Positions 1 through 49,259 are shown, counted from the stretch's first letter. The stretch: 64,000 bases of DNA from Candidatus Paceibacter sp. (GCA_020724865.1 DYGA01000002.1:12032-76031), one strand, 5' to 3'. The notes: generated from the letters alone by a model not told the origin. Numbers and translations are program-made.

Positions 1-2871
1 ATCAAACAAAAAGCTGAGGATCCAACACGATATGGATATCGAACTCCAGAACTGAATTATCTTGTAAGAATGGCGGAAAAAAAACCAAAAGAAGTTGCAG
101 ATATAATGCTTTCAGTGGTTATTTCAAAAGATAATTTTAATCCCGAAGTTATCGACCAATTTTTGAGAATTTGCAGTTCTTTGCCAGCAGAGCAATTAGC
201 GAGAATAGTACCGAAAATTCGCGATGAGGGCTGGGTGCAACTGATGAGTATATTTAATCAATGGGGTTTTGAGTATGAAAAAATATTCCAAACGCTTGCC
301 GTCGCTAAGGACTATGAGAGTATTTTGACTCTCGCCGAAGCGGTGCTTGCCGTAAAGACAAAAGAAGAATATAAGCAAACTTCTCATGGTTATTTATCGG
401 ACAATCCTTTTTATTTCACTGACCTTTCATATACAAAAGTCTTTGAATGTTTAGTGGCTGTAGACGATCAATATCTTGAAAAGGCATTGGAAATTACAAC
501 AAGAGTGATGGCGACAATCGTGCTTTTGGGCGAAGATGCCGAGAAAAATGAAGTGTTTCAGATTCATGAACCTTTTTATCTTTTTGATGTTGATTTCTTT
601 TCTTTGGAATTGGGCGATGAAAAACATCATTCAGACCGAGAAAACGTCAAAGATTTAGCGGCAACCATTAAAGCACTTACTCGAAGATTAATTGGTAACA
701 ATTGCGACAAATCAGAATTGATTAAAGAGGTTTATAAAAAATATATTCAAACTCTACCAGAAAGCAGGTCGATGTGGCGACTGCGTCTTTTCGTTTTGAG
801 TTTGTGCCCAAGCACCTTTCAAATAGAATTGAGACAATCTTTCTCAAGATTATTTGAGGTGATGGATGTTGGTAAGCATTATTACGAAATTGAATCTGGA
901 ACAGAATATAAGAAAGCCCTTAAACAGAGCTTTAGTGTTTTGGATTCTACTTATCAACGTGAATATGTTTCTAATGTCTTTAAGCATTTCGGGCAAAGCC
1001 GTGAAGACAAAAAAGAGGAACAATGGTATAAGCGTGATGGCTGGCAGATTCTTTCCAGTATTTGTGATTCTTTAATTCAAGAAGAAAAAGAAGATTGTGA
1101 AAAAGTATTTGGTAAAAAATGCGATCCTGCTTTTGAACCCGAACCGTCCATTGGGAAAATAGTGAGTGGTTTTGTAAAGCCGAGAGCCGCAATTTCTCAG
1201 GAAGAATTTGGTAAACTTTCCATTGCTGATATTGCCAAAAAATTAAGAGAAGATTGGAAACCAGAAGCTTTAAGGAAAAAGAATACAAGCGATGATTTTT
1301 TGTATCCTCTGAATGCCGAAGGCGTTGGAGAACAATTACGTGCTGATATTGCTAAACGATTACAGGACTATGTTCAAAACGCTAATTTATTCTTTGAGAG
1401 AGATGTTCTTGATGAGCATTATACCTATTCCTTCTTTCGGGGTGTTCAGGAAGCTATACGTTCCGATAAAACAAAGGCAGCAAGTGCCCAGTGGGATAAG
1501 CTGATTGAAACTTTTGTTGCTATTAAGAATTCGGGAACTATAAAAGCCTTTGATCATAAAATCAGAGAGCGAGAAAAATTTGATGCCTGGCTTTCAAGTT
1601 GGACTGGTGTGCACTCTGCGATGACCGATATTTTACAGGAATTATTGAATGAAACTGAAGGGAAAATCATTATAGATTTTCCAAAATATCGCAACCAGCT
1701 TTTTGAGACTATAAGCTATCTTTTAGCGTATCCTGACCCAGAACCGCAAGATGAGGAATTGAAAACAGCAATCATGAAGACCCACGCTCCTGGCAATAAA
1801 GAAGAGTATTTTGTTAGCGATCCATTTACGATGGCAATCAATACAGTACGCGGTCGCGCGTTCCAGGCTTTTGTATTATTTGTTTACCAAGACGGAAAGC
1901 AATTCAAAAAAGAAGATAAAATTAAAATTGCTTCTGATGTAAAAGAGTTATATGAGGAAGTTTTAAGAAAAGAGAACACTCGCGCCTTGATGTTTATGTT
2001 CGGTCACTATCTGCCTTCTTTTTACTTTCGTGATATAGAATGGACTCACAAACTTTTACCTCAAATCTTTCCAGAAGAAACAACTAAAAAACATCTTTAC
2101 CTGGCTGCCTGGGAGGGTTATCTTACTAATAATCTTTACGAGGAGATATTCTTCGATCCAGAATTTCAAAAATTATACGAGAGAGGATTAGTTTTGACTG
2201 GCAGTGAAGATCCAAAACGCAAATATTTCAAAAAACCAGATGAAGGAATCGCTATTCATTTGGCGTTGGCATTTGTTGTCTATCACAAAAAATTTGGATT
2301 TGACCACCCTCTTTTTGAGAGATTCTGGAAACAAAATACTGAACGACAAAGCGAATTCATTAGTTTTATTGGGCGGATGTTTGTCTCTGGTGATAACGCT
2401 CGTGTAAATGAGCAGTTGAAAAAAGACCCAGAAATTAAAAAGAGATTAACTGAATTCTGGGAATGGTTGCTTAAGAATTATAATGACCCGAAACTATTTG
2501 TTGAGTTTGGATTTTGGGTGAATCTTGAGAAAAAAATTTTTGAGCCAGTTTGGCTGGCTAAACAAATAAAGGCGACCTTAGAAAAAACTAAGGGAGTATT
2601 GGAATTGGATTATGCTCTCACCAAGTCTATTAACGAATTGGCTAAAGCCGCGCCCAAAGATACATTGGAAATCGCCCGTTTGTGCTTGTTTGAAGGCGGG
2701 GTACGTGACGGTAAAATGCGCATGCTATTTATGTACTACGAGGAATGGTTTGAGGCAATCAAAATTCTCTATGAAAATATCGAAACAAAAGACGATACTT
2801 ATAAACTTATCAACGATTTGATTCGTGAAGGAGGGAGTACTTTTTGGAAATTAAAAGAGGTTATAAACTAA
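1..2871 (+). CDS. Large uncharacterised protein, 5'-partial. The reading frame is open from nt 1 in the same frame as the ATG at 70, so the gene probably starts upstream of the window. Alpha-helical, with no recognisable catalytic motifs.
   Basis: ORF 70..2871 (933 aa). Frame 1 has no stop between nt 1 and 70. No Walker A or nuclease motifs seen. Only a 6-nt gap to the downstream Mrr-like gene. Confidence 0.55.
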   Translation: MKQKAEDPTRYGYRTPELNYLVRMAEKKPKEVADIMLSVVISKDNFNPEVIDQFLRICSSLPAEQLARIVPKIRDEGWVQLMSIFNQWGFEYEKIFQTLAVAKDYESILTLAEAVLAVKTKEEYKQTSHGYLSDNPFYFTDLSYTKVFECLVAVDDQYLEKALEITTRVMATIVLLGEDAEKNEVFQIHEPFYLFDVDFFSLELGDEKHHSDRENVKDLAATIKALTRRLIGNNCDKSELIKEVYKKYIQTLPESRSMWRLRLFVLSLCPSTFQIELRQSFSRLFEVMDVGKHYYEIESGTEYKKALKQSFSVLDSTYQREYVSNVFKHFGQSREDKKEEQWYKRDGWQILSSICDSLIQEEKEDCEKVFGKKCDPAFEPEPSIGKIVSGFVKPRAAISQEEFGKLSIADIAKKLREDWKPEALRKKNTSDDFLYPLNAEGVGEQLRADIAKRLQDYVQNANLFFERDVLDEHYTYSFFRGVQEAIRSDKTKAASAQWDKLIETFVAIKNSGTIKAFDHKIREREKFDAWLSSWTGVHSAMTDILQELLNETEGKIIIDFPKYRNQLFETISYLLAYPDPEPQDEELKTAIMKTHAPGNKEEYFVSDPFTMAINTVRGRAFQAFVLFVYQDGKQFKKEDKIKIASDVKELYEEVLRKENTRALMFMFGHYLPSFYFRDIEWTHKLLPQIFPEETTKKHLYLAAWEGYLTNNLYEEIFFDPEFQKLYERGLVLTGSEDPKRKYFKKPDEGIAIHLALAFVVYHKKFGFDHPLFERFWKQNTERQSEFISFIGRMFVSGDNARVNEQLKKDPEIKKRLTEFWEWLLKNYNDPKLFVEFGFWVNLEKKIFEPVWLAKQIKATLEKTKGVLELDYALTKSINELAKAAPKDTLEIARLCLFEGGVRDGKMRMLFMYYEEWFEAIKILYENIETKDDTYKLINDLIREGGSTFWKLKEVIN

Positions 2872-2877
2872 AATCAT

Positions 2878-3582
2878 ATGCAAATTAATTTTTGGGAAAT
2901 AATTAAAAGTTCGTTGTCTATCTTGTGGACACTGTGGCCGCTTTGGGCAGTTTTGTTGGCAATTGTTGTTATTAGGTTATTCTTTTATTGGCTTGATTTG
3001 GAGATAGATAATTGGCACATTCGCCGAAAATTCAGAAAAGGAGAAAAATGGCGCTCGGATCGTGATTTGTTGCAATGGCTTCGTGGCATGAAGCCATCGG
3101 AATTTGAAGATTATATCGCTGATTTGTTTTCGCGGCTTGGCTACAAAGCAAAAGCAGTTGGCGGATCGCATGACGGAGGCGTCGACGTTGTTATTGAAAA
3201 AGACGGAGTAAAAAGCTACATCCAATGCAAGAAGTTTATAACATCAGAAGTAACAGTCGGCGATGTCAGAGATTTCTATGGCGCTTTGGCTGACCATATT
3301 GCCAACGGAAAGGCATATTTTATTACCACAAATAAATTTACACTTGAAGCTGAGAAGTTTGCTGAGGATAAGCCAATTGAACTTATAGACGGATACAAAC
3401 TTATTCGGTATATCAAAATGGCTAAAAAGGACAAAGATGAAATAAAGGAAACTCCTCAGGTTTGCCCCCGCTGTGGCGGAAATTTAGTGAAAAGAACTGG
3501 CAAGTTTGGAGTATTTTACGGATGTTCTAACTATCCGAAATGTGATTATACGATTAATCAGAACAAAAAAACATTTTTATGA
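2878..3582 (+). CDS. Membrane-anchored Mrr-family (PD-(D/E)xK) restriction-endonuclease-like protein with a C-terminal topoisomerase-type C4 zinc ribbon
   Basis: N-terminal hydrophobic helices (LSILWTLWPLWAVLLAIVVIRLFFYWL). Mrr_cat-like core GGSHDGGVDVVIEKDGVKSYIQCKKF...GKAYFITTNKFT. C-terminal CPRCGG...GCSNYPKCDY, a zf-C4 topoisomerase-like motif. Confidence 0.75.
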   Translation: MQINFWEIIKSSLSILWTLWPLWAVLLAIVVIRLFFYWLDLEIDNWHIRRKFRKGEKWRSDRDLLQWLRGMKPSEFEDYIADLFSRLGYKAKAVGGSHDGGVDVVIEKDGVKSYIQCKKFITSEVTVGDVRDFYGALADHIANGKAYFITTNKFTLEAEKFAEDKPIELIDGYKLIRYIKMAKKDKDEIKETPQVCPRCGGNLVKRTGKFGVFYGCSNYPKCDYTINQNKKTFL

Positions 3583-3905
3583 AAGAAAGTATCAAGCAAA
3601 AATTAAAGTTAAGGTTAAAAATGGCAGGGTTTATATTATCTTTAGTGGGTTGGTTTTTGCTTGTTGTTGTCCCGCTTGAATTTGCGGGAATCAATCTCTC
3701 TGGCTTAGAAGGTTTTGTTGAAACATCAGCTTTTAAGTGGGGATTAAAAATCTTTGTTATTATTGCCCTTATCTTTTTGATTAAGGGTCAGAGTATTGTT
3801 GAGGGCATCATTGAAAAACATAATTGGCTAAAGTTGACTCTGAAAATAATTTTCTGGGGCGGTGCAATTGGCTGGATTGTTGGACTGGGAAGTTTGTTAA
3901 TCTGA
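3579..3905 (+). CDS. Small integral membrane protein. Its start overlaps the previous stop (ATGA), so it is likely co-translated.
   Basis: 108 aa with 3-4 hydrophobic helices; 4-nt overlap with the upstream gene. Confidence 0.5.
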   Translation: MKESIKQKLKLRLKMAGFILSLVGWFLLVVVPLEFAGINLSGLEGFVETSAFKWGLKIFVIIALIFLIKGQSIVEGIIEKHNWLKLTLKIIFWGGAIGWIVGLGSLLI

Positions 3906-4032
3906 GAAATAGTAAGTAGTATGGCGAAATAGTCTATTTCTCGGCAAAGCCCCTCAAATCTGGAATGTGAATATATTCAGTTTGCCGCTGAATTATCGTT
4001 CTAACGCTGTTCACAATGTTGAGCCATAAAAA

Positions 4033-4066
4033 AATAATGAACTTAGGTTCATTATTTTTTTGTTTG
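4033..4066 (+). terminator. Rho-independent terminator closing the 1..3905 operon
   Basis: aataatgaac-ttag-gttcattatt hairpin followed by tttttgtttgtt. Confidence 0.6.
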
Positions 4067-4113: not shown

Positions 4114-4142
4114 TTGACAAAATCGAAAAAATGTGCTATACT
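4114..4142 (+). promoter_or_regulatory. Sigma70-like promoter with extended -10 (TTGACA-17-TGcTATACT). A 9-bp inverted repeat ATGTGCTAT/ATAGCACAT (4131-4139 / 4163-4171) overlaps it.
   Basis: ttgacaaaatcgaaaaaatgtgctatact. An RBS aaaggag at 4206-4212 precedes the ATG at 4218. Confidence 0.6.
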
Positions 4143-4217: not shown

Positions 4218-5342
4218 ATGAACTGGTATCACAAAGTACTTATTATTTTGGTGGTTGGATTATTTATATTTATCCATCAAGATGTATTGGTACAAAATTA
4301 CCGTGATAATTCGCCAGTTCTATCTAGCGAAGAAATCACGAAGCTTGAACAGCAAGTAGCACAGATTAGTGCAACTGCTACTCAAGATATTAAGTCTGGG
4401 ACGTATAGCCCCGCAAAGTGGCAACAGCATGTCTACTTTTTGCAAACACAAGTTTTGCAAAAATTTGGTGGTATCTATAGCCGAGAAAAGTTTTTTGTTG
4501 AAGCTGGTAGAATTCTTGATTATACAATCAAGAATTATTATGAGCCTAGATCGAATGATCCAGTTAAAGGATTATTGTTTCAACAAGAAATAAATAGTGC
4601 TCAAGCCAAAGTTTTGCATGAGAACAACGTGACAGTAGACTGGTCAAAATTTGTTTCCAGCATTTGGAGTTTTTATTTATCATTTTTGCCCTACACCTTA
4701 TTAATCATCTTGATTAGAAGGTCGGTTATTTATAAATTAAAATTCCACTCAGCTGGCGATGTTGCAGTTGTCATACTTAGTACCTTTAGCATTATTGGTA
4801 TTTTTGTTTATAAGCCCAAAAGCTTATTACAAAAAACAATAGATGCTGAACTCAAAGTTTGGCAGGAGAAAATCGGTACAAAAGGCTGGAGATTAGCTCT
4901 GGCTTATACATTGGCAATTATATTTGCCATCGGTACTATACTTCGTCCCGCCAAGGTCTACGCGCAAGAATTTTTCAAGGAAAGGGTAGTAATTACCCAA
5001 ATGGTGGAATTAGATTCGGAAGATGAATCTTTAGAATTTAATTTAGCAATTGTGGCAATATTGCAAAGATATTTTGTGGAAACAATCAGAGCAATTCAGA
5101 AATTTATATTTCTGTTTTTCTCCCCGATGTTCATTCTGTTGAATATCCCGCCGCCACGGAGTTTCATTTTTGTTTCTTGGCAAACGCCAAGAGACAAAAT
5201 AGTATTATCTAAAATGATAGTTGGCTGTAGAACTCCTAGTGTTTTGTTTCAGTTTAACTTAATTAACCGAAACAATAAAAAACACAAAGGAATTTACAGT
5301 GAAAAATATCATTTTAATATTATTAATTTTTTTGGCCGCTAA
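4218..5342 (+). CDS. Hypothetical polytopic membrane protein
   Basis: 374 aa ORF with a strong promoter and RBS and several hydrophobic segments. The 3' end overlaps the next ORF by 44 nt, so the true stop may differ. Confidence 0.5.
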   Translation: MNWYHKVLIILVVGLFIFIHQDVLVQNYRDNSPVLSSEEITKLEQQVAQISATATQDIKSGTYSPAKWQQHVYFLQTQVLQKFGGIYSREKFFVEAGRILDYTIKNYYEPRSNDPVKGLLFQQEINSAQAKVLHENNVTVDWSKFVSSIWSFYLSFLPYTLLIILIRRSVIYKLKFHSAGDVAVVILSTFSIIGIFVYKPKSLLQKTIDAELKVWQEKIGTKGWRLALAYTLAIIFAIGTILRPAKVYAQEFFKERVVITQMVELDSEDESLEFNLAIVAILQRYFVETIRAIQKFIFLFFSPMFILLNIPPPRSFIFVSWQTPRDKIVLSKMIVGCRTPSVLFQFNLINRNNKKHKGIYSEKYHFNIINFFGR

Positions 5343-6111
5343 TGGCCAAATATTTTCTCAGGATTTAACAATTACCCGCAAATATGCCGGTGTAATCTAT
5401 ACCGGAGTAATTGATCAAAAGATAAATATCAACAGCAATGTTGATTATATGTTTGGTTTAGAAACCAAGTATACATTATTTAAGGATAATGATTTATTTT
5501 TTAGATCACGTTACTCAAATCCTGATGAAAGTCTTGGTAGCTTTTGGTACGAGTCAAATTTTTCCGAACTTAAGATTAAGGTCGGTTATATTGCCAGACA
5601 AATCACTCTTACTAGACCTCATCCAATCGGCTCAGGTGGACACTTTGAACCTTTCCCTTACGGAAAAATTCCTGGTGGCGCTCCGGGCGTAGATGTTTCC
5701 TTAAATGGTAAAGAGTGGTCAGTGGGGTTAGGTTATTCCTACAATTCTCAAAAACAAGTCAGTGAAGCAAATTTTGGTGTTGGCTTCAAAGATGAAGATT
5801 TAGAGATAAGAGGTGGACTGGTTTATAGCCAGTTATACCAAGGAGTAGCCGGTCAGGTAATATACCAAAAAGTAAAGCTGATGTGCTTTTTTGAATCAGA
5901 CTCCCTACTAACGAATTTTTTGTTTATCAGTGGCCCTATAAACGGCTACTTAGGATCAAGCTATGATCACAAAGAAAAAGATTGGGAAAGAGTGGAGTTT
6001 GGTCTGACAAAAAATTTATCAGCATCTTACGGTTTAAGTGGGGTAGTAGCTAGTGGATATGATCCCTTAAATAAAAAAATAATAATTTATTTTTGGGTTT
6101 ATATCCAATAA
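5299..6111 (+). CDS. Secreted hypothetical protein, Gly/Tyr-rich and beta-rich, with a signal peptide
   Basis: MKNIILILLIFLAANGQIFSQ signal peptide. No known motif recognised. Confidence 0.5.
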   Translation: MKNIILILLIFLAANGQIFSQDLTITRKYAGVIYTGVIDQKININSNVDYMFGLETKYTLFKDNDLFFRSRYSNPDESLGSFWYESNFSELKIKVGYIARQITLTRPHPIGSGGHFEPFPYGKIPGGAPGVDVSLNGKEWSVGLGYSYNSQKQVSEANFGVGFKDEDLEIRGGLVYSQLYQGVAGQVIYQKVKLMCFFESDSLLTNFLFISGPINGYLGSSYDHKEKDWERVEFGLTKNLSASYGLSGVVASGYDPLNKKIIIYFWVYIQ

Positions 6112-6261: not shown

Positions 6262-6567
6262 ATGAATTTTAATTGTTGTAAGACTAAAAAATCAAAAGAA
6301 GATTTAGAAAAAATTACAAAATTTTTGCAAGTAATTGCCGAGCCAAATCGGTTAAAAATTTTGTGTATTTTGCGAAAAAAAAGTTTATGTGTTTGTGATA
6401 TCTGGGAATATTTGGATTTACCTCAAAATTTAGTTTCTCATCATTTAAAAGTATTAAAAGATCAAAAATTGGTATTGGCTAAAAGAGAAAGTACTAAAAT
6501 TATTTATACAATTAATCCATCTGTAATAGATGAAAATATTTCATTATTAAACTTATTTATTAAATAA
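6262..6567 (+). CDS. ArsR/SmtB-family metalloregulator
   Basis: Winged-HTH LKILCILRKK...SLCVCDIWEYLDLPQNLVSHHLKVLKDQKLV. It includes the CVCD metal/As(III)-binding motif typical of ArsR. Confidence 0.8.
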   Translation: MNFNCCKTKKSKEDLEKITKFLQVIAEPNRLKILCILRKKSLCVCDIWEYLDLPQNLVSHHLKVLKDQKLVLAKRESTKIIYTINPSVIDENISLLNLFIK

Positions 6568-6573
6568 AAAAAT

Positions 6574-6807
6574 ATGGTAATCAAAATTCTTGGTTCAGGC
6601 TGTCCCAATTGTTTAAAATTGGAAGCCAATGCCAAACAAGCTGTCGCAGAGCTTGGTTTAAAAGATATAAATATAGAACATGTATATGATTTTGAAGAAA
6701 TTTTAGAATATGGCGTTATGGCTACGCCAGCAATTGTGATTGATGAACAAGTAAAAGCAGCCGGAAGAATCGTGCCCGCCGAAGAAATAAAGACTTGGTT
6801 AAAATAA
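6574..6807 (+). CDS. Small thioredoxin-fold protein (redox-active disulfide protein 2 type, CxxC)
   Basis: GSGCPNC motif, 77 aa. Typical companion of ArsP-type permeases. Confidence 0.7.
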   Translation: MVIKILGSGCPNCLKLEANAKQAVAELGLKDINIEHVYDFEEILEYGVMATPAIVIDEQVKAAGRIVPAEEIKTWLK

Positions 6808-7925
6808 AAAATATGAAAAAAGAATTAAAAATCATGGCGTTACTATTGGGTCTATTTTTACTGTTTTATTTTATGCCTCTGAATTCGGTATTATTTACTG
6901 ATGCTGTGTTCTCTGGTTTAGCCTTACTCAATGAATATGCTAGACAACATGTATTAACTTGCTTAGTGCCAGCATTTTTTATTGCCGGTGCAATTTCTGT
7001 ATTTGTTAAAAAAGATTTTGTTTTAAAGTATTTGGGCGGGCAAGCAAAAAAAATCGTTTCGTATTCTTTAGCTTCGGTATCTGGAGCAATTTTGGCGGTG
7101 TGTTCTTGTACTATATTGCCGTTGTTTGCCGGCATTAGGAAAAGGGGAGCAGGACTGGGCCCGGCAATTACTTTTTTATTTTCTGGACCGGCCATCAATA
7201 TCGCAGCTATGTTTCTCACTTTGTCAGTTTTGGGTTTGAATATTGGTTTAGCCAGAATTATTTCAGCTATTTTTCTATCTATCTTAGTTGGTTTGTCCAT
7301 GCAGTTAATATTTAGAGAAAAAACCGAAAACGGTAATCTTTTTATAGAACAAAGCAACCAACCTTCTTATGGTAAAATTACAGTTTTAATTTTTATGTTG
7401 ACTATGGTTGGTATTTTAGTGGTCAATGGTCTGCAGATCGGTGTAACGATTAAATACTTACTCATGGCAGGTTTAACGATAGTAGTGGCGATAATTGCTT
7501 TGACTAAATTCCAAAAACAAACTAACCACGAATGGCTCAAAGAAACTTGGAGTTTTACTAAAATGCTTTTACCAATTTTGTTTATTGGTGTATTTATAGC
7601 CGGGTTTATTATGCCGTTTTTACCAGAAAGTTTAATTGTTAAATTGGTTGGGACAAATTCAGTTTCAGGCAACTTAGTGTCTTCTATTTTTGGCGCTTTT
7701 ATGTATTTTTCTACATTGACAGAAATTCCTATACTACAGGCTTTAATTGCCAAAGGTATGAATCAAGGGCCGGCTCTTGCTTTACTTTTAGCTGGACCAT
7801 CTTTGAGCCTTCCCAATATGTTGGTGGTCAGGCGCATTTTGGGAAATAAAAAAACGGCTGTTTATGTTTTATTGGTTATATTTTACTCAACTATTGCTGG
7901 TCTTATCTTTGGTAGTTTAATATAA
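6795..7925 (+). CDS. DUF318/ArsP-family permease (putative organoarsenical or metal efflux permease)
   Basis: Polytopic membrane protein with the conserved CSC motif (AVCSCTILPLFAG) and Gly-rich LGPAITFLFSGPAIN. Confidence 0.65.
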   Translation: MVKIKNMKKELKIMALLLGLFLLFYFMPLNSVLFTDAVFSGLALLNEYARQHVLTCLVPAFFIAGAISVFVKKDFVLKYLGGQAKKIVSYSLASVSGAILAVCSCTILPLFAGIRKRGAGLGPAITFLFSGPAINIAAMFLTLSVLGLNIGLARIISAIFLSILVGLSMQLIFREKTENGNLFIEQSNQPSYGKITVLIFMLTMVGILVVNGLQIGVTIKYLLMAGLTIVVAIIALTKFQKQTNHEWLKETWSFTKMLLPILFIGVFIAGFIMPFLPESLIVKLVGTNSVSGNLVSSIFGAFMYFSTLTEIPILQALIAKGMNQGPALALLLAGPSLSLPNMLVVRRILGNKKTAVYVLLVIFYSTIAGLIFGSLI

Positions 7926-7937
7926 AATAAAAATAAT

Positions 7938-9137
7938 ATGTATAAAAAAATTTTATTTCTACTATTTTTTGTTTCTTTATTGTTTATTCCTCAGCAAAAT
8001 GTTTTTGCCCAAGATTCATCTCAAACCAATATTTATTTTTTTTGGGGACAGGGTTGCCCTCACTGTGCTAAAGCTGAACCATTTTTGAAAAAACTTGATC
8101 AACAATACAGCGATGTCACTTTATATGATTTTGAGGTGTATTATAATCGTACTAACCAAAAATTATTACAAGAGGTGGGACGAACTTTGGGTATAAATAT
8201 TTCTGGCGTACCAGCAATTATTATTGGCGATCAGGCAATTATTGGTTTTAGTGAAACTATTACTCCCAGTGAAATAGAGCGGCGAGTAGAAATGTGTCAG
8301 CAGTTGGGTTGTCCTGATGAAATCGGTAAAATTTTAGGTATAGAAAAAAAAGAACCAATTGTTGAACCAGTGACAGAAAATATTAAATCTATCAAGATTC
8401 AAGTCCCTTTTTTACATGAGATTGAAACTAAAGATTTTTCTCTGCCAGTCCTGACAATTATATTGGGGGTATTGGACGGTTTTAATCCTTGTGCCATGTG
8501 GGTACTTTTGTTTTTAATCAGTTTACTACTGGGCATGAAAGATAAAAAGCGGATGTGGATTTTGGGCAGTGCTTTTATTATTGCTTCAGCTTTAGTTTAT
8601 TTTATTTTTATGGCCGCTTGGTTGAATTTAATAATTTTTTTAGGTTTTATAGTTTGGATCAGAGTATTGATTGGTTTGATAGCTTTGGCAGGCGGCGGAT
8701 ATAATTTGAAAGAATATTTTACCAACCCCGAAGGTGCCTGTAAAGTTACTAATACGGAAAAACGGCAAAAAGTTTTTACCAAATTGAAAGACATTACTCA
8801 ACAAAAAAGTTTTTATTTGGCTTTAGGCGGAATAATACTTTTGGCTTTTGCTGTCAATTTGGTAGAACTTGTTTGTTCAGCCGGGTTACCAGCTGTATAT
8901 ACTCAAGTTTTGGCTTTAAATGATTTAGCTAAGTGGCAATATTATCTATACATCAGTCTGTATATTTTGGTTTTTATGTTTGATGATTTATTGGTGTTTT
9001 TTGTGGCCATGACTACATTGCAGATAACTGGACTTACTACCAAATATACTCGCTACTCTCATTTAATCGGCGGAATTTTAATGGTAATTATTGGGTTATT
9101 GCTCATTTTTAAACCTGAAGCATTGATGTTTGGGTAG
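7938..9137 (+). CDS. Thioredoxin-like domain fused to a DsbD/CcdA-type thiol:disulfide transporter membrane domain
   Basis: Signal peptide, then WGQGCPHC thioredoxin motif. Membrane part has GFNPCAMWVL and VELVCSAG, the Cys-in-TM pattern of the CcdA/DsbD family. Confidence 0.65.
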   Translation: MYKKILFLLFFVSLLFIPQQNVFAQDSSQTNIYFFWGQGCPHCAKAEPFLKKLDQQYSDVTLYDFEVYYNRTNQKLLQEVGRTLGINISGVPAIIIGDQAIIGFSETITPSEIERRVEMCQQLGCPDEIGKILGIEKKEPIVEPVTENIKSIKIQVPFLHEIETKDFSLPVLTIILGVLDGFNPCAMWVLLFLISLLLGMKDKKRMWILGSAFIIASALVYFIFMAAWLNLIIFLGFIVWIRVLIGLIALAGGGYNLKEYFTNPEGACKVTNTEKRQKVFTKLKDITQQKSFYLALGGIILLAFAVNLVELVCSAGLPAVYTQVLALNDLAKWQYYLYISLYILVFMFDDLLVFFVAMTTLQITGLTTKYTRYSHLIGGILMVIIGLLLIFKPEALMFG

Positions 9138-31854: not shown

Positions 31855-31931
31855 TGGTGACAGGGGGCGGAGTTGAACCGCCGACCTAGGGGTTATGATT
31901 CCCTCGCTCTAACCAACTGAGCTACCCTGCC
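31855..31931 (-). tRNA. tRNA with anticodon CAU (elongator Met, or Ile if lysidinylated)
   Basis: Manual fold: GGCAGGG acceptor, GCTC/GAGC D-stem, anticodon loop aTCATaa, T-loop TTCAACT, CCA end encoded. Confidence 0.7.
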
Positions 31932-31932
31932 T

Positions 31933-32008
31933 TGGTAGCGGGGGCTGGACTCGAACCAGCGACCTCCAGGTTATGGGCCTGGCGAGCTGCCAACTGCTCT
32001 ACCCCGCG
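31933..32008 (-). tRNA. tRNA-Met (CAU), initiator-like: 5' CGCGGGG...CCCCGCU-A-CCA, very similar to E. coli tRNA-fMet, with an unpaired 1:72 position (C1.U72) and C33
   Basis: Manual fold. 1-nt spacer to the neighbouring tRNA. Confidence 0.65.
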
Positions 32009-32148
32009 TCGATAAATACGCTTAAAGATTATATCTTATTTATCTAAATTTTTCAAGATATTTTTTAATAAACCTTAAAATATTACTTATTTCTTAATAC
32101 TTTATTCTGTTTTACATTAACAGAATTAATCAGGTTAATACAAAAGCA

Positions 32149-32235
32149 TGGTGCCGCGGGAGAGAATCGAACTCTCATGAGCTTGCGCTCACAGGTTTTT
32201 GAGACCTGCGTGTCTACCAATTCCACCACCGCGGC
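32149..32235 (-). tRNA. tRNA-Leu (CAA) with a long variable arm
   Basis: GCCGCGGTGGTGGAATTGGTAGACAC...anticodon loop CTCAAAA...long variable arm...TTCGATT T-loop...CCA. Confidence 0.8.

Positions 32236-49182: not shown

Positions 49183-49259
<77 letters not shown>

What the first reader, a model, noticed from the sequence alone, without database searches (positions are those of the whole stretch)
1..4066. Candidate novel nuclease-containing module (possible defence system)
Three genes in one transcription unit: a >950 aa alpha-helical protein of unknown function that continues off the window edge, a membrane-anchored Mrr-family PD-(D/E)xK nuclease with a topoisomerase-type zinc ribbon, and a small membrane protein whose start overlaps the previous stop. 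A terminator closes the unit at 4033-4066. Mrr_cat + zf-C4_Topoisom is a known but functionally uncharacterised architecture. The tight coupling to a huge partner protein with no recognisable ATPase, methylase or helicase motifs is not a described restriction or defence layout. Established knowledge: Mrr-type modules are type IV restriction-like effectors. What is new here is the partner and the membrane anchoring.
Basis: partly seen in the sequence, partly recalled or inferred. Interest (0 to 1): 0.7.

Follow-up and report, generated by a model that had tools for sequence, protein, structure and literature searches.

The report
Dsr1-like phage sensor beside Mrr nuclease
The three genes are real, but they are the tail of a seven-gene defence operon in a Patescibacteria genome: the large helical protein is related to the Dsr1/Avs7 phage-sensing domain and its conserved partner is a small predicted nuclease encoded just off the window, while the membrane-anchored Mrr nuclease is a widespread stand-alone gene that only sometimes sits next to it.

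Summary
The ORFs, the Mrr_cat + topoisomerase zinc-ribbon architecture, the N-terminal membrane anchor, the ATGA start/stop overlap and the closing hairpin are all present. The proposed three-gene module is not a conserved unit.

The parent contig was recovered (L001, 346 kb). The large protein is 1003 aa, so only 47 aa are missing from the window.

It matches the post-SIR2 sensor region of PADLOC's Dsr1 model. 17 of 24 family members match, best E 1e-27.

Its conserved partner is a 188-aa protein immediately upstream and off the window. This partner is fused to the N-terminus in about a quarter of homologues and belongs to Pfam pP_pnuc_1, a predicted nuclease family.

A Mrr-type gene follows the large protein in 1 of 80 species-level loci (a different, zinc-ribbon-less Mrr_cat). 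The Mrr-ZnR family itself follows it only in the window's close relatives and a few metagenome loci.

Conversely, about 90% of Mrr-ZnR genes have no large protein nearby. The 108-aa membrane ORF is reduced to a remnant in the closest relatives.

A 2026 Nature paper shows the Dsr1/Avs7 sensor occurs with many effectors and detects phage major capsid protein.

Best reading: a defence island made of a DpnII-type RM system, a split Dsr1-like sensor with a predicted nuclease, and a solitary membrane-tethered Mrr nuclease. Interest is moderate.

The parts
1..2871 (+). C-terminal 956 codons plus stop of the 1003-aa all-alpha solenoid protein ('BIG'), the candidate phage-protein sensor. The start codon lies 141 nt upstream of the window.
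   Evidence: Frame is open from base 1. Full gene is L001:6983-9994. More than 2,200 representatives at 50% identity. AF2 model of the fused homologue P0002 has pLDDT 88 and is all helical.
328..2814 (+). Region of BIG that aligns to the post-SIR2 sensor part of the PADLOC Dsr1 profile (profile positions 460-1207 of 1227).
   Evidence: PDLC04166 Dsr1, E 2.3e-19, window-protein aa 110-938. 17 of 24 family members match, best E 1e-27, and no other PADLOC family recurs.
2878..3582 (+). Membrane-anchored Mrr-family PD-(D/E)xK nuclease with a C-terminal topoisomerase-type C4 zinc ribbon (234 aa). It is an independent stand-alone module.
   Evidence: Pfam Mrr_cat and Zn_ribbon_Top1. PADLOC mREase_IV, E 6.5e-19. 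928 homologues at E <= 1e-10, listed hits 55-95% identical over most of the length including the TM helix. No conserved neighbour.
2908..3009 (+). N-terminal hydrophobic anchor of the Mrr protein (aa 11-44). It is followed by a K/R-rich stretch, so the nuclease domain is predicted to face the cytoplasm (inference from the positive-inside rule).
   Evidence: Kyte-Doolittle scan. The segment is conserved in the family alignment A7.
3079..3411 (+). Mrr_cat catalytic core. E77, D99, D103 and Q116-C117-K118 are invariant.
3460..3567 (+). Topoisomerase I-type Cys4 zinc ribbon.
   Evidence: Pfam E 1.4e-16. Aligns to E. coli TopA ribbons.
3579..3905 (+). 108-aa ORF with about 3 hydrophobic segments whose start overlaps the Mrr stop (ATGA). 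It is an orphan, dispensable or possibly non-functional.
   Evidence: No family hit. Only a 27-aa remnant survives in the closest relatives L087 and L099. A small TM gene follows Mrr in 1 of 63 other loci.
4027..4066 (+). AT-rich hairpin plus U-run, the likely intrinsic terminator that closes the operon.
   Evidence: -17.6 kcal/mol, z -5.9, no shuffle folds as well.
4114..4142 (+). Promoter-like site (TTGACA-17-TATACT with TG) for the next gene. It marks the boundary of the unit.

Best explanation
The window holds the 3' end of a defence-island operon in a Patescibacteria (Parcubacteria-type) genome. The operon stacks three separate immune modules.

(1) Off the window lies a DpnII-type type II RM pair under an HTH_17 regulator.

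(2) Next is a two-gene Dsr1-like system. A 188-aa pP_pnuc_1-family predicted nuclease (off the window) acts as effector. The 1003-aa alpha-solenoid (window 1-2871) acts as sensor, and is homologous to the sensor region shared by Dsr1 and Avs7.

By analogy with EcDsr1 and SeAvs7, the solenoid would bind a conserved phage structural protein, there the HK97-fold major capsid protein. Binding would release or activate the N-terminal effector, which would degrade nucleic acid and stop the infection.

(3) Last is a solitary membrane-tethered Mrr-type nuclease with a DNA-binding zinc ribbon (window 2878-3582). Its catalytic domain is predicted to be cytoplasmic. It probably acts as a type IV-like or non-specific nuclease on DNA near the membrane. 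The orphan 108-aa membrane ORF follows it.

Shown: homology of the solenoid to the Dsr1 sensor; fusion and adjacency of the 188-aa protein; non-conservation of the Mrr and 108-aa neighbours; intact Mrr catalytic residues.

Inferred: the trigger, the nuclease activity of the 188-aa protein, the Mrr topology, and defence function itself.
For: Sensor homology:
- The Dsr1 HMM matches 17 of 24 family members over about 750 profile positions, and no other PADLOC family recurs.

The 188-aa partner:
- It lies directly upstream, or is fused as the N-terminus, in most of the 81 loci. 42 are split and about 20 are fused.
- It has invariant S, R, H and H residues.
- It matches Pfam pP_pnuc_1 in 18 of 48 members, and above the gathering score in P0261.

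Effector swapping:
- In 8 loci an unrelated TM-anchored 205-239-aa protein takes the partner's place.
- Caldilineaceae versions add an FRG domain.

Literature:
- The Avs7/Dsr1 sensor is shared by non-STAND proteins with NADase, nuclease, kinase, HEPN-like, TM and unknown effectors.
- Major capsid protein triggers both SeAvs7 and EcDsr1 (PMC13581612 and PMC12803255).

Defence context:
- RM genes lie co-directionally upstream in at least 20 of 63 loci.
- The family is patchily distributed across phyla at 40-55% identity.

Mrr independence:
- BIG-centred census and Mrr-centred census.
- L098 has dnaG-rpoD...Mrr with no island.
Against: - No experiment exists for this family, and the window genome's own 188-aa protein has no Pfam hit.
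- The canonical HEPN Rx4-6H motif is absent.
- I could not confirm that this family is in the paper's 9,097-protein list, because the supplement is not held.
- BIG followed by a membrane-anchored Mrr_cat gene recurs in at least 7 distinct loci. These span BIG identities of 38-83% and include an unrelated TM-Mrr_cat in L018. That is more than random adjacency.
Confidence: 0.55

Rival explanations
1. The Mrr-ZnR nuclease is an optional extra effector of the sensor system, and the reader's module is real in a sub-clade. The sensor would activate or recruit a membrane-tethered nuclease in addition to, or instead of, the small N-terminal protein.
For: - The order BIG then Mrr, on the same strand with gaps of 4-15 nt in most cases, recurs in L001, L087, L109, L119, L095/L120, L099 and L089.
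- BIG is the single most frequent neighbour family of Mrr-ZnR.
- A distantly related two-TM Mrr_cat protein without a zinc ribbon follows a fused BIG after a 4-nt gap in L018.
- In L089 the partner is the TM protein rather than the predicted nuclease.
Against: - More than 90% of BIG loci have no Mrr-type gene. Downstream genes are heterogeneous and often housekeeping.
- About 90% of Mrr-ZnR loci have no BIG.
- In L098 the Mrr gene sits near dnaG-rpoD without the island. Adjacency in close relatives can therefore come from island insertion next to a resident gene.
- Both genes favour the 3' ends of RM operons, which would bring them together without any functional link.
Confidence: 0.17
2. The small protein plus BIG is an RM-coupled back-up or guard module. 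It is co-transcribed behind an RM system and fires when restriction fails or is inhibited, in the manner of PrrC with EcoprrI.
For: - At least 20 of 63 loci have RM genes directly upstream and co-directional. Four RM types occur: DpnII type II, Eco57I-like type IIG, MTase+ResIII type III, and PLD-SNF2+Eco57I.
- An HTH_17 gene heads the array in several loci.
- One promoter and one terminator bracket the seven genes in L001.
- RM linkage is about 2-3 times higher than around Mrr-ZnR genes in similar genomes.
Against: - The RM types are unrelated, so a specific protein-protein guard is unlikely.
- Two thirds of loci have no RM gene adjacent.
- Clustering in defence islands explains the linkage without functional coupling.
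- EcDsr1 works as a single gene (PMC13581612).
Confidence: 0.13
3. The membrane-anchored Mrr-ZnR is not an immune nuclease. It would be a DNA-uptake or nucleotide-salvage nuclease of Patescibacteria, which depend on scavenged nucleotides.
For: - The family is very conserved, with listed hits 55-95% identical among 928 homologues at E <= 1e-10.
- It is often flanked by housekeeping genes such as PCMT, NUDIX, MgsA, DNA polymerase III delta' and RadC.
- It is syntenic with dnaG-rpoD in L098.
Against: - The positive-inside pattern and the Cys4 zinc ribbon predict a cytoplasmic catalytic domain (inference).
- It matches PADLOC mREase_IV.
- It recurs next to ResIII, GmrSD, SLFN-helicase and MTase genes.
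Confidence: 0.1
4. The large solenoid is a housekeeping scaffold with no immune role.
For: - There is no enzymatic domain.
- Conservation is unusually high for a defence sensor, at about 55% identity across phyla.
- Structural neighbours are generic HEAT/ARM proteins.
Against: - It matches the Dsr1 HMM.
- Its phyletic distribution is patchy, which indicates horizontal transfer.
- Its N-terminal partners are swapped between loci.
- Its neighbourhoods contain RM genes, integrases, SocA/Panacea and Cap15.
- It is not syntenic with core genes.
Confidence: 0.04

Closest known systems
Dsr1 (defence-associated sirtuin 1; e.g. EcDsr1 WP_029488749.1)
   Same: The large C-terminal helical-repeat sensor is homologous (PADLOC Dsr1 profile positions 460-1207). 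The effector sits N-terminal to the sensor, as one polypeptide in the fused homologues. No NTPase is present.
   Different: There is no SIR2 NADase. The effector is a pP_pnuc_1-type predicted nuclease, or a TM protein in some loci. In this genome the effector and sensor are two genes. Hosts are mostly Patescibacteria and Caldilineaceae. The genes often form the last cistrons of RM operons.
Avs7 and other 'Avs7-sensor' defence proteins (Nature 2026, PMC13581612)
   Same: The paper reports that the Dsr1 sensor is homologous to the Avs7 sensor and is combined with many effectors (NADase, nuclease, kinase, HEPN-like RNase, TM, unknown). The logic of modular effector swapping is the same as seen here. 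The trigger for SeAvs7 and EcDsr1 is the HK97-fold major capsid protein.
   Different: No STAND NTPase domain is present (no Pfam hit). Homology to Avs7 itself was not tested here and rests only on the Dsr1 link. Split-gene versions, Patescibacteria and RM linkage are not mentioned in the paper's main text.
DSR2
   Same: The architecture is an N-terminal effector plus an alpha-solenoid C-terminal sensor that binds a phage structural protein (tail tube).
   Different: No detectable sequence match was found: PADLOC returned only Dsr1 and a PDB sequence search returned nothing. DSR2 was not among the top structural hits. The effector differs.
pP_pnuc_1 (Pfam PF18165, 'predicted pPIWI-associating nuclease')
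   Same: The N-terminal or upstream 170-220-aa helical domain matches this model in 18 of 48 members, and above the gathering score in P0261. It pairs with a defence sensor.
   Different: Here it is attached to a Dsr1-type solenoid rather than a prokaryotic Argonaute. The window genome's own copy scores below the reporting threshold. The family has no biochemical characterisation that I could find.
Mrr / type IV methyl-directed restriction enzymes (PADLOC mREase_IV)
   Same: It has the Mrr_cat PD-(D/E)xK core with the D...QxK signature and is a single-gene nuclease.
   Different: No Mrr_N-type DNA-recognition domain was detected. Instead it has an N-terminal membrane anchor and a C-terminal topoisomerase-type zinc ribbon. 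Modification dependence is unknown. It must tolerate the host's own methylation, presumed to be at GATC (the DpnII site is from my own knowledge).
PrrC-EcoprrI / RloC (RM-embedded back-up nucleases)
   Same: A latent nuclease module is co-encoded with an RM system.
   Different: There is no ABC-ATPase and no anticodon-nuclease domain. The linked RM systems are of four unrelated types. The resemblance is positional only.

Membership tests
Dsr1 | N-terminal SIR2 NADase domain | tested here: not met
   No SIR2 hit in the 188-aa protein, in BIG, or in 12 fused or extended homologues. The PADLOC match starts at profile position 460, after the SIR2 part.
Dsr1 | Large C-terminal sensor region homologous to that of Dsr1 | tested here: met
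   PDLC04166 matches 17 of 24 members, best E 1e-27, over about 750 profile positions in one stretch.
Dsr1 | Single polypeptide carrying effector and sensor | tested here: not met
   The genes are split in the window genome, with a 5-nt gap. They are fused in about 20 of 81 loci.
Dsr1 / Avs7-sensor proteins | Activated by phage major capsid protein | not testable with these tools
   Known for EcDsr1 and SeAvs7 only (PMC13581612).
Avs7 (STAND) | Central STAND NTPase (NACHT/AAA-type) domain | tested here: not met
   No NTPase family in the Pfam or NCBIfam scans of BIG or the fused homologues.
Avs7-sensor fold | Bilobed, sharply bent helical-repeat sensor | tested here: inconclusive
pP_pnuc_1 (PF18165) | Match to the Pfam model at or above the gathering score | tested here: inconclusive
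   The window genome's copy has no hit. 18 of 48 relatives match at E <= 0.1, best 1.4e-5. P0261 scores 26.6 bits against a cutoff of 26.3.
HEPN RNases | Rx4-6H catalytic motif in a four-helix bundle | tested here: not met
Mrr-type (type IV) restriction endonuclease | Mrr_cat PD-(D/E)xK core with intact catalytic residues | tested here: met
   Mrr_cat E 5.4e-29. E77, D99, D103 and Q116-x-K118 are invariant in 25 sequences.
Mrr-type (type IV) restriction endonuclease | N-terminal winged-helix (Mrr_N) domain that reads modified DNA, and modification-dependent cleavage | tested here: not met
   No Mrr_N hit. The N-terminus is a hydrophobic anchor and the DNA-binding candidate is a C-terminal zinc ribbon. 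Modification dependence itself is not testable here.
   BIG-centred census: a Mrr-type gene in 1 of 80 species loci plus a few close relatives. Mrr-centred census: BIG in 5-6 of 76 loci. The 108-aa ORF is intact only in this organism.

The most novel reading that the evidence does not exclude
In candidate-phyla-radiation bacteria, a Dsr1-type capsid sensor with a pP_pnuc_1 nuclease is wired as the last cistrons of restriction-modification operons. In a sub-clade it is further joined to a membrane-tethered Mrr nuclease. This would form a co-transcribed, layered operon (restriction, then structural-protein sensing, then a membrane-proximal nuclease) whose parts cooperate functionally rather than merely co-locating.
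Probability: 0.12. Interest if true: 0.6.

Novelty: new variant of a known kind. Interest (0 to 1): 0.35.

Why it matters
If the assignment holds, the Dsr1/Avs7 phage-protein sensor extends to a large family, mostly in uncultivated lineages. The family has more than 2,200 representatives at 50% identity, in Patescibacteria, Caldilineaceae and Nitrospirales among others.

In this family the NADase is replaced by an uncharacterised predicted nuclease (pP_pnuc_1) or by a membrane protein. The effector can also be a separate gene.

This gives a concrete handle on the function of pP_pnuc_1, which also accompanies prokaryotic Argonautes. It also gives a natural split system for studying how this sensor controls its effector.

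The tight placement behind four types of RM system is a testable hint of coordinated first-line and second-line defence.

The Mrr part is ordinary on its own. It documents a widespread membrane-anchored Mrr-zinc-ribbon family whose role, immunity or DNA processing at the membrane, is untested.

Tried and rejected
- Island boundaries: I looked for an att-type direct repeat of the tRNA-Asn 3' end. Only short AT-rich chance matches appeared.
- PDB sequence searches with BIG and the 188-aa protein gave nothing meaningful.
- The afdb50 fold library was unavailable.
- I tried to bridge BIG to SIR2-bearing Dsr1 proteins through a distant Legionella plasmid homologue. That gene is IS-truncated and its relatives carry no annotated domains.
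- I tried to check the Nature 2026 supplementary list for this family's accessions (OQB44548.1, KKR54385.1 and others). The supplement is not held.
- No paper mentions pP_pnuc_1 or PF18165 in the searchable library.
- Canonical HEPN for the small protein was rejected on the motif.
- Divergent homology between the alternative TM partner (cluster 3) and the 188-aa family was rejected: hhalign probability 3.6%.
- The 553-aa protein downstream of Mrr in L097 was tested as a BIG relative. There is no similarity.
- A phage-borne origin is unlikely: only 2 of 2.9 million viral contigs carry a BIG relative.

Full report
**Observation**

The three ORFs are present at the stated coordinates.
- Frame 1 is open from base 1 to the stop at 2869-2871.
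- A 234-aa ORF at 2878-3582 matches Mrr_cat (E 5.4e-29) and Zn_ribbon_Top1 (E 1.4e-16).
- It carries a hydrophobic segment at aa 11-44.
- A 108-aa ORF at 3579-3905 with about three hydrophobic segments starts in an ATGA overlap with the Mrr stop.
- The hairpin plus U-run at about 4027-4066 folds at -17.6 kcal/mol, z -5.9.
- A strong promoter-like site for the next gene follows at 4114-4142.
- The large protein has no Pfam or NCBIfam family.

**Recovering the missing sequence**

An exact look-up of the Mrr protein found the parent contig (L001, JGI 3300029893, 346 kb).
- The large protein ('BIG') is 1003 aa, so only 47 aa lie off the window.
- Upstream, tightly packed on the same strand, are HTH_17, an N6_N4 DNA methyltransferase, a DpnII endonuclease and a 188-aa protein with no Pfam hit.
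- This array is preceded by tRNA-Asn, a terminator, and a perfect TTGACA-16-TATAAT promoter-like site at L001:4391-4418.
- The transcription unit is therefore most likely seven genes, not three.

**What the large protein is**

PADLOC's Dsr1 model matches BIG at E 2.3e-19 in one stretch, covering profile positions 460-1207 of 1227, which is the part after the SIR2 domain.
- The match is reproducible: 17 of 24 diverse family members hit Dsr1, best E 1e-27, and no other PADLOC family recurs.
- The family is large. There are 582 hits in the word-indexed search. There are 2,263 representatives at 50% identity with E <= 1e-3, of which 418 have E <= 1e-30.
- It is patchily distributed. Most loci come from Patescibacteria lineages. 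Others come from Caldilineaceae, Nitrospirales, Omnitrophota, Elusimicrobia, some Gammaproteobacteria-labelled MAGs and one archaeal MAG, at 40-55% identity.
- An AF2 model of a fused homologue is confident (pLDDT 88) and all-alpha.

**The true partner**

Homologues fall into two length classes, about 1000 aa and about 1165-1216 aa.
- The longer ones carry the 188-aa protein as an N-terminal domain.
- Among 81 loci, a homologue of the 188-aa protein lies directly upstream in 42 and is fused in about 20.
- The domain has invariant S, R, H and H residues in SLRE and AHH motifs.
- It matches Pfam pP_pnuc_1 ('predicted pPIWI-associating nuclease') in 18 of 48 members. One member scores above the gathering cutoff (P0261, 26.6 against 26.3 bits).
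- The canonical Rx4-6H motif is not conserved, so I do not call it HEPN.
- In 8 loci an unrelated 205-239-aa protein with an N-terminal TM helix takes the same position.
- Caldilineaceae copies add an FRG domain.
- This is the sensor-plus-exchangeable-effector pattern.

**Literature**

A paper in Nature (2026; PMC13581612, preprint PMC12803255) makes three relevant points.
- The Avs7 sensor is homologous to the Dsr1 sensor.
- It is shared by non-STAND proteins with NADase, nuclease, kinase, HEPN-like, TM and unknown effectors.
- The phage major capsid protein triggers both SeAvs7 and EcDsr1.

Its main text does not mention split genes, Patescibacteria or RM linkage. Its supplementary list is not held.

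**Is the Mrr gene part of it?**

BIG-centred census:
- In 80 species-representative loci only L018 has a Mrr-type gene downstream. That protein is a two-TM Mrr_cat with no zinc ribbon.
- Downstream genes are otherwise heterogeneous.
- Among the closest relatives, L087/L088 and L089 do have the same Mrr-ZnR (90% and 85% identical), and L090 does not.

Mrr-centred census:
- The family has 928 homologues at E <= 1e-10. The anchor, catalytic residues and ribbon are conserved.
- Of 76 non-duplicate loci, 5-6 have BIG upstream, including a 38%-identical fused BIG in L095.
- No other neighbour family occurs in more than 4 loci. Contexts mix RM and defence genes with housekeeping genes.
- In L098 the Mrr gene lies near dnaG-rpoD with no island.

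The 108-aa ORF:
- It is reduced to a 27-aa remnant in L087 and L099, even though 6.1 kb of the island is 82.7% identical at the nucleotide level.
- Small TM genes follow Mrr in only 1 of 63 other loci.

The three-gene unit is therefore not conserved. The repeated order BIG then membrane-anchored Mrr_cat is more than chance, so I keep an optional-accessory reading as a rival at 0.17.

**RM linkage**

- At least 20 of 63 loci with enough upstream sequence have RM genes directly upstream and co-directional.
- Four different RM types occur.
- This may be ordinary defence-island clustering or real coupling. I rate coupling at 0.13.

**Verdict**

The finding is real as sequence and is defence-related, but it is mis-assembled.
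- It is best read as a split Dsr1-like sensor-effector pair, with half of it off the window, followed by an independent membrane-tethered Mrr nuclease and an orphan ORF.
- The sensor kind is already known, so this is a new variant: a different effector, a split gene, new hosts and RM linkage.
- No component has experimental support.
- Interest 0.35.

Noticed in passing
L001:4237-4418 (about 2.7 kb upstream of window base 1): tRNA-Asn is followed by a terminator-like hairpin (4321-4344) and a perfect 12/12 sigma-70-type promoter TTGACA-16-TATAAT (4391-4418). This promoter heads the seven-gene array HTH_17/MTase/DpnII/188-aa/1003-aa/Mrr/108-aa. No att-like repeat of the tRNA end was found downstream.
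   Followed up: partly
L013, L016, L024, L025, L045, L048, L056, L058-L060, L063, L064, L070, L072, L085, L089, L095 (upstream of the BIG gene): The small-protein/BIG pair is very often the last cistrons behind an RM system. Four unrelated RM types occur: DpnII type II, Eco57I-like type IIG, MTase+ResIII type III, and PLD-SNF2 helicase + Eco57I-like. At least 20 of 63 loci show this.
   Followed up: partly
L007:6315-6932, L016:6321-6935, L024:6216-6935, L028:6319-6960, L057:6240-6926, L058:6239-6910, L082:6225-6935, L089:5387-6004: An alternative upstream partner of BIG: a 205-239-aa protein with an N-terminal TM helix, a low-complexity linker and a helical C-terminal domain. It has no Pfam hit and is unrelated to the 188-aa family (hhalign probability 3.6%). 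It may be a membrane effector.
   Followed up: partly
L030:5819-6940 and similar Caldilineaceae loci (L034, L035, L052, L061): The pP_pnuc_1-like partner is extended to about 370 aa by an N-terminal FRG domain (E 4.6e-16).
   Followed up: no
L018:9963-10826: A 287-aa protein with two N-terminal TM helices and a Mrr_cat core, but no zinc ribbon, follows a fused BIG after a 4-nt gap in a Falkowbacteria MAG. It is only distantly related to the window's Mrr-ZnR (E 7e-9), so this is a second, independent membrane-anchored Mrr next to BIG.
   Followed up: partly
L097:67-7338: In another Patescibacteria contig the Mrr-ZnR gene sits inside a type III-like RM operon. The order is HTH_17, N6_N4 MTase, ResIII, a HARE-HTH/PDDEXK_5 protein (overlapping start), Mrr-ZnR, then an uncharacterised 553-aa protein unrelated to BIG.
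   Followed up: partly
window 4218-6111: Two overlapping-end ORFs with no Pfam family: a 374-aa protein with several hydrophobic segments (4218-5342), and a 270-aa protein with a signal-peptide-like start (5299-6111). Both are called as genes on the parent contig.
   Followed up: no
window 6262-9137 and downstream to about 13,600: A metal/thiol homeostasis cluster. It contains ArsR-type HTH_5, Thioredoxin_3, an ArsP-type permease and a 399-aa thioredoxin-like membrane protein. These are followed by a CsoR-like repressor, an HMA/DsbD_2 protein and a P-type ATPase (precomputed Pfam on L001).
   Followed up: no
window 31855-32235 (-) and 49183-49259 (+): A tRNA cluster (two tRNA-Met with CAT anticodons and tRNA-Leu-CAA) and a separate tRNA-Val-CAC. 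No other Rfam family reaches its gathering score in the window.
   Followed up: no
L179, L180 (IMG/VR contigs): Only two of 2.9 million viral contigs encode a BIG relative (45-51% identity), so the family is essentially cellular.
   Followed up: no
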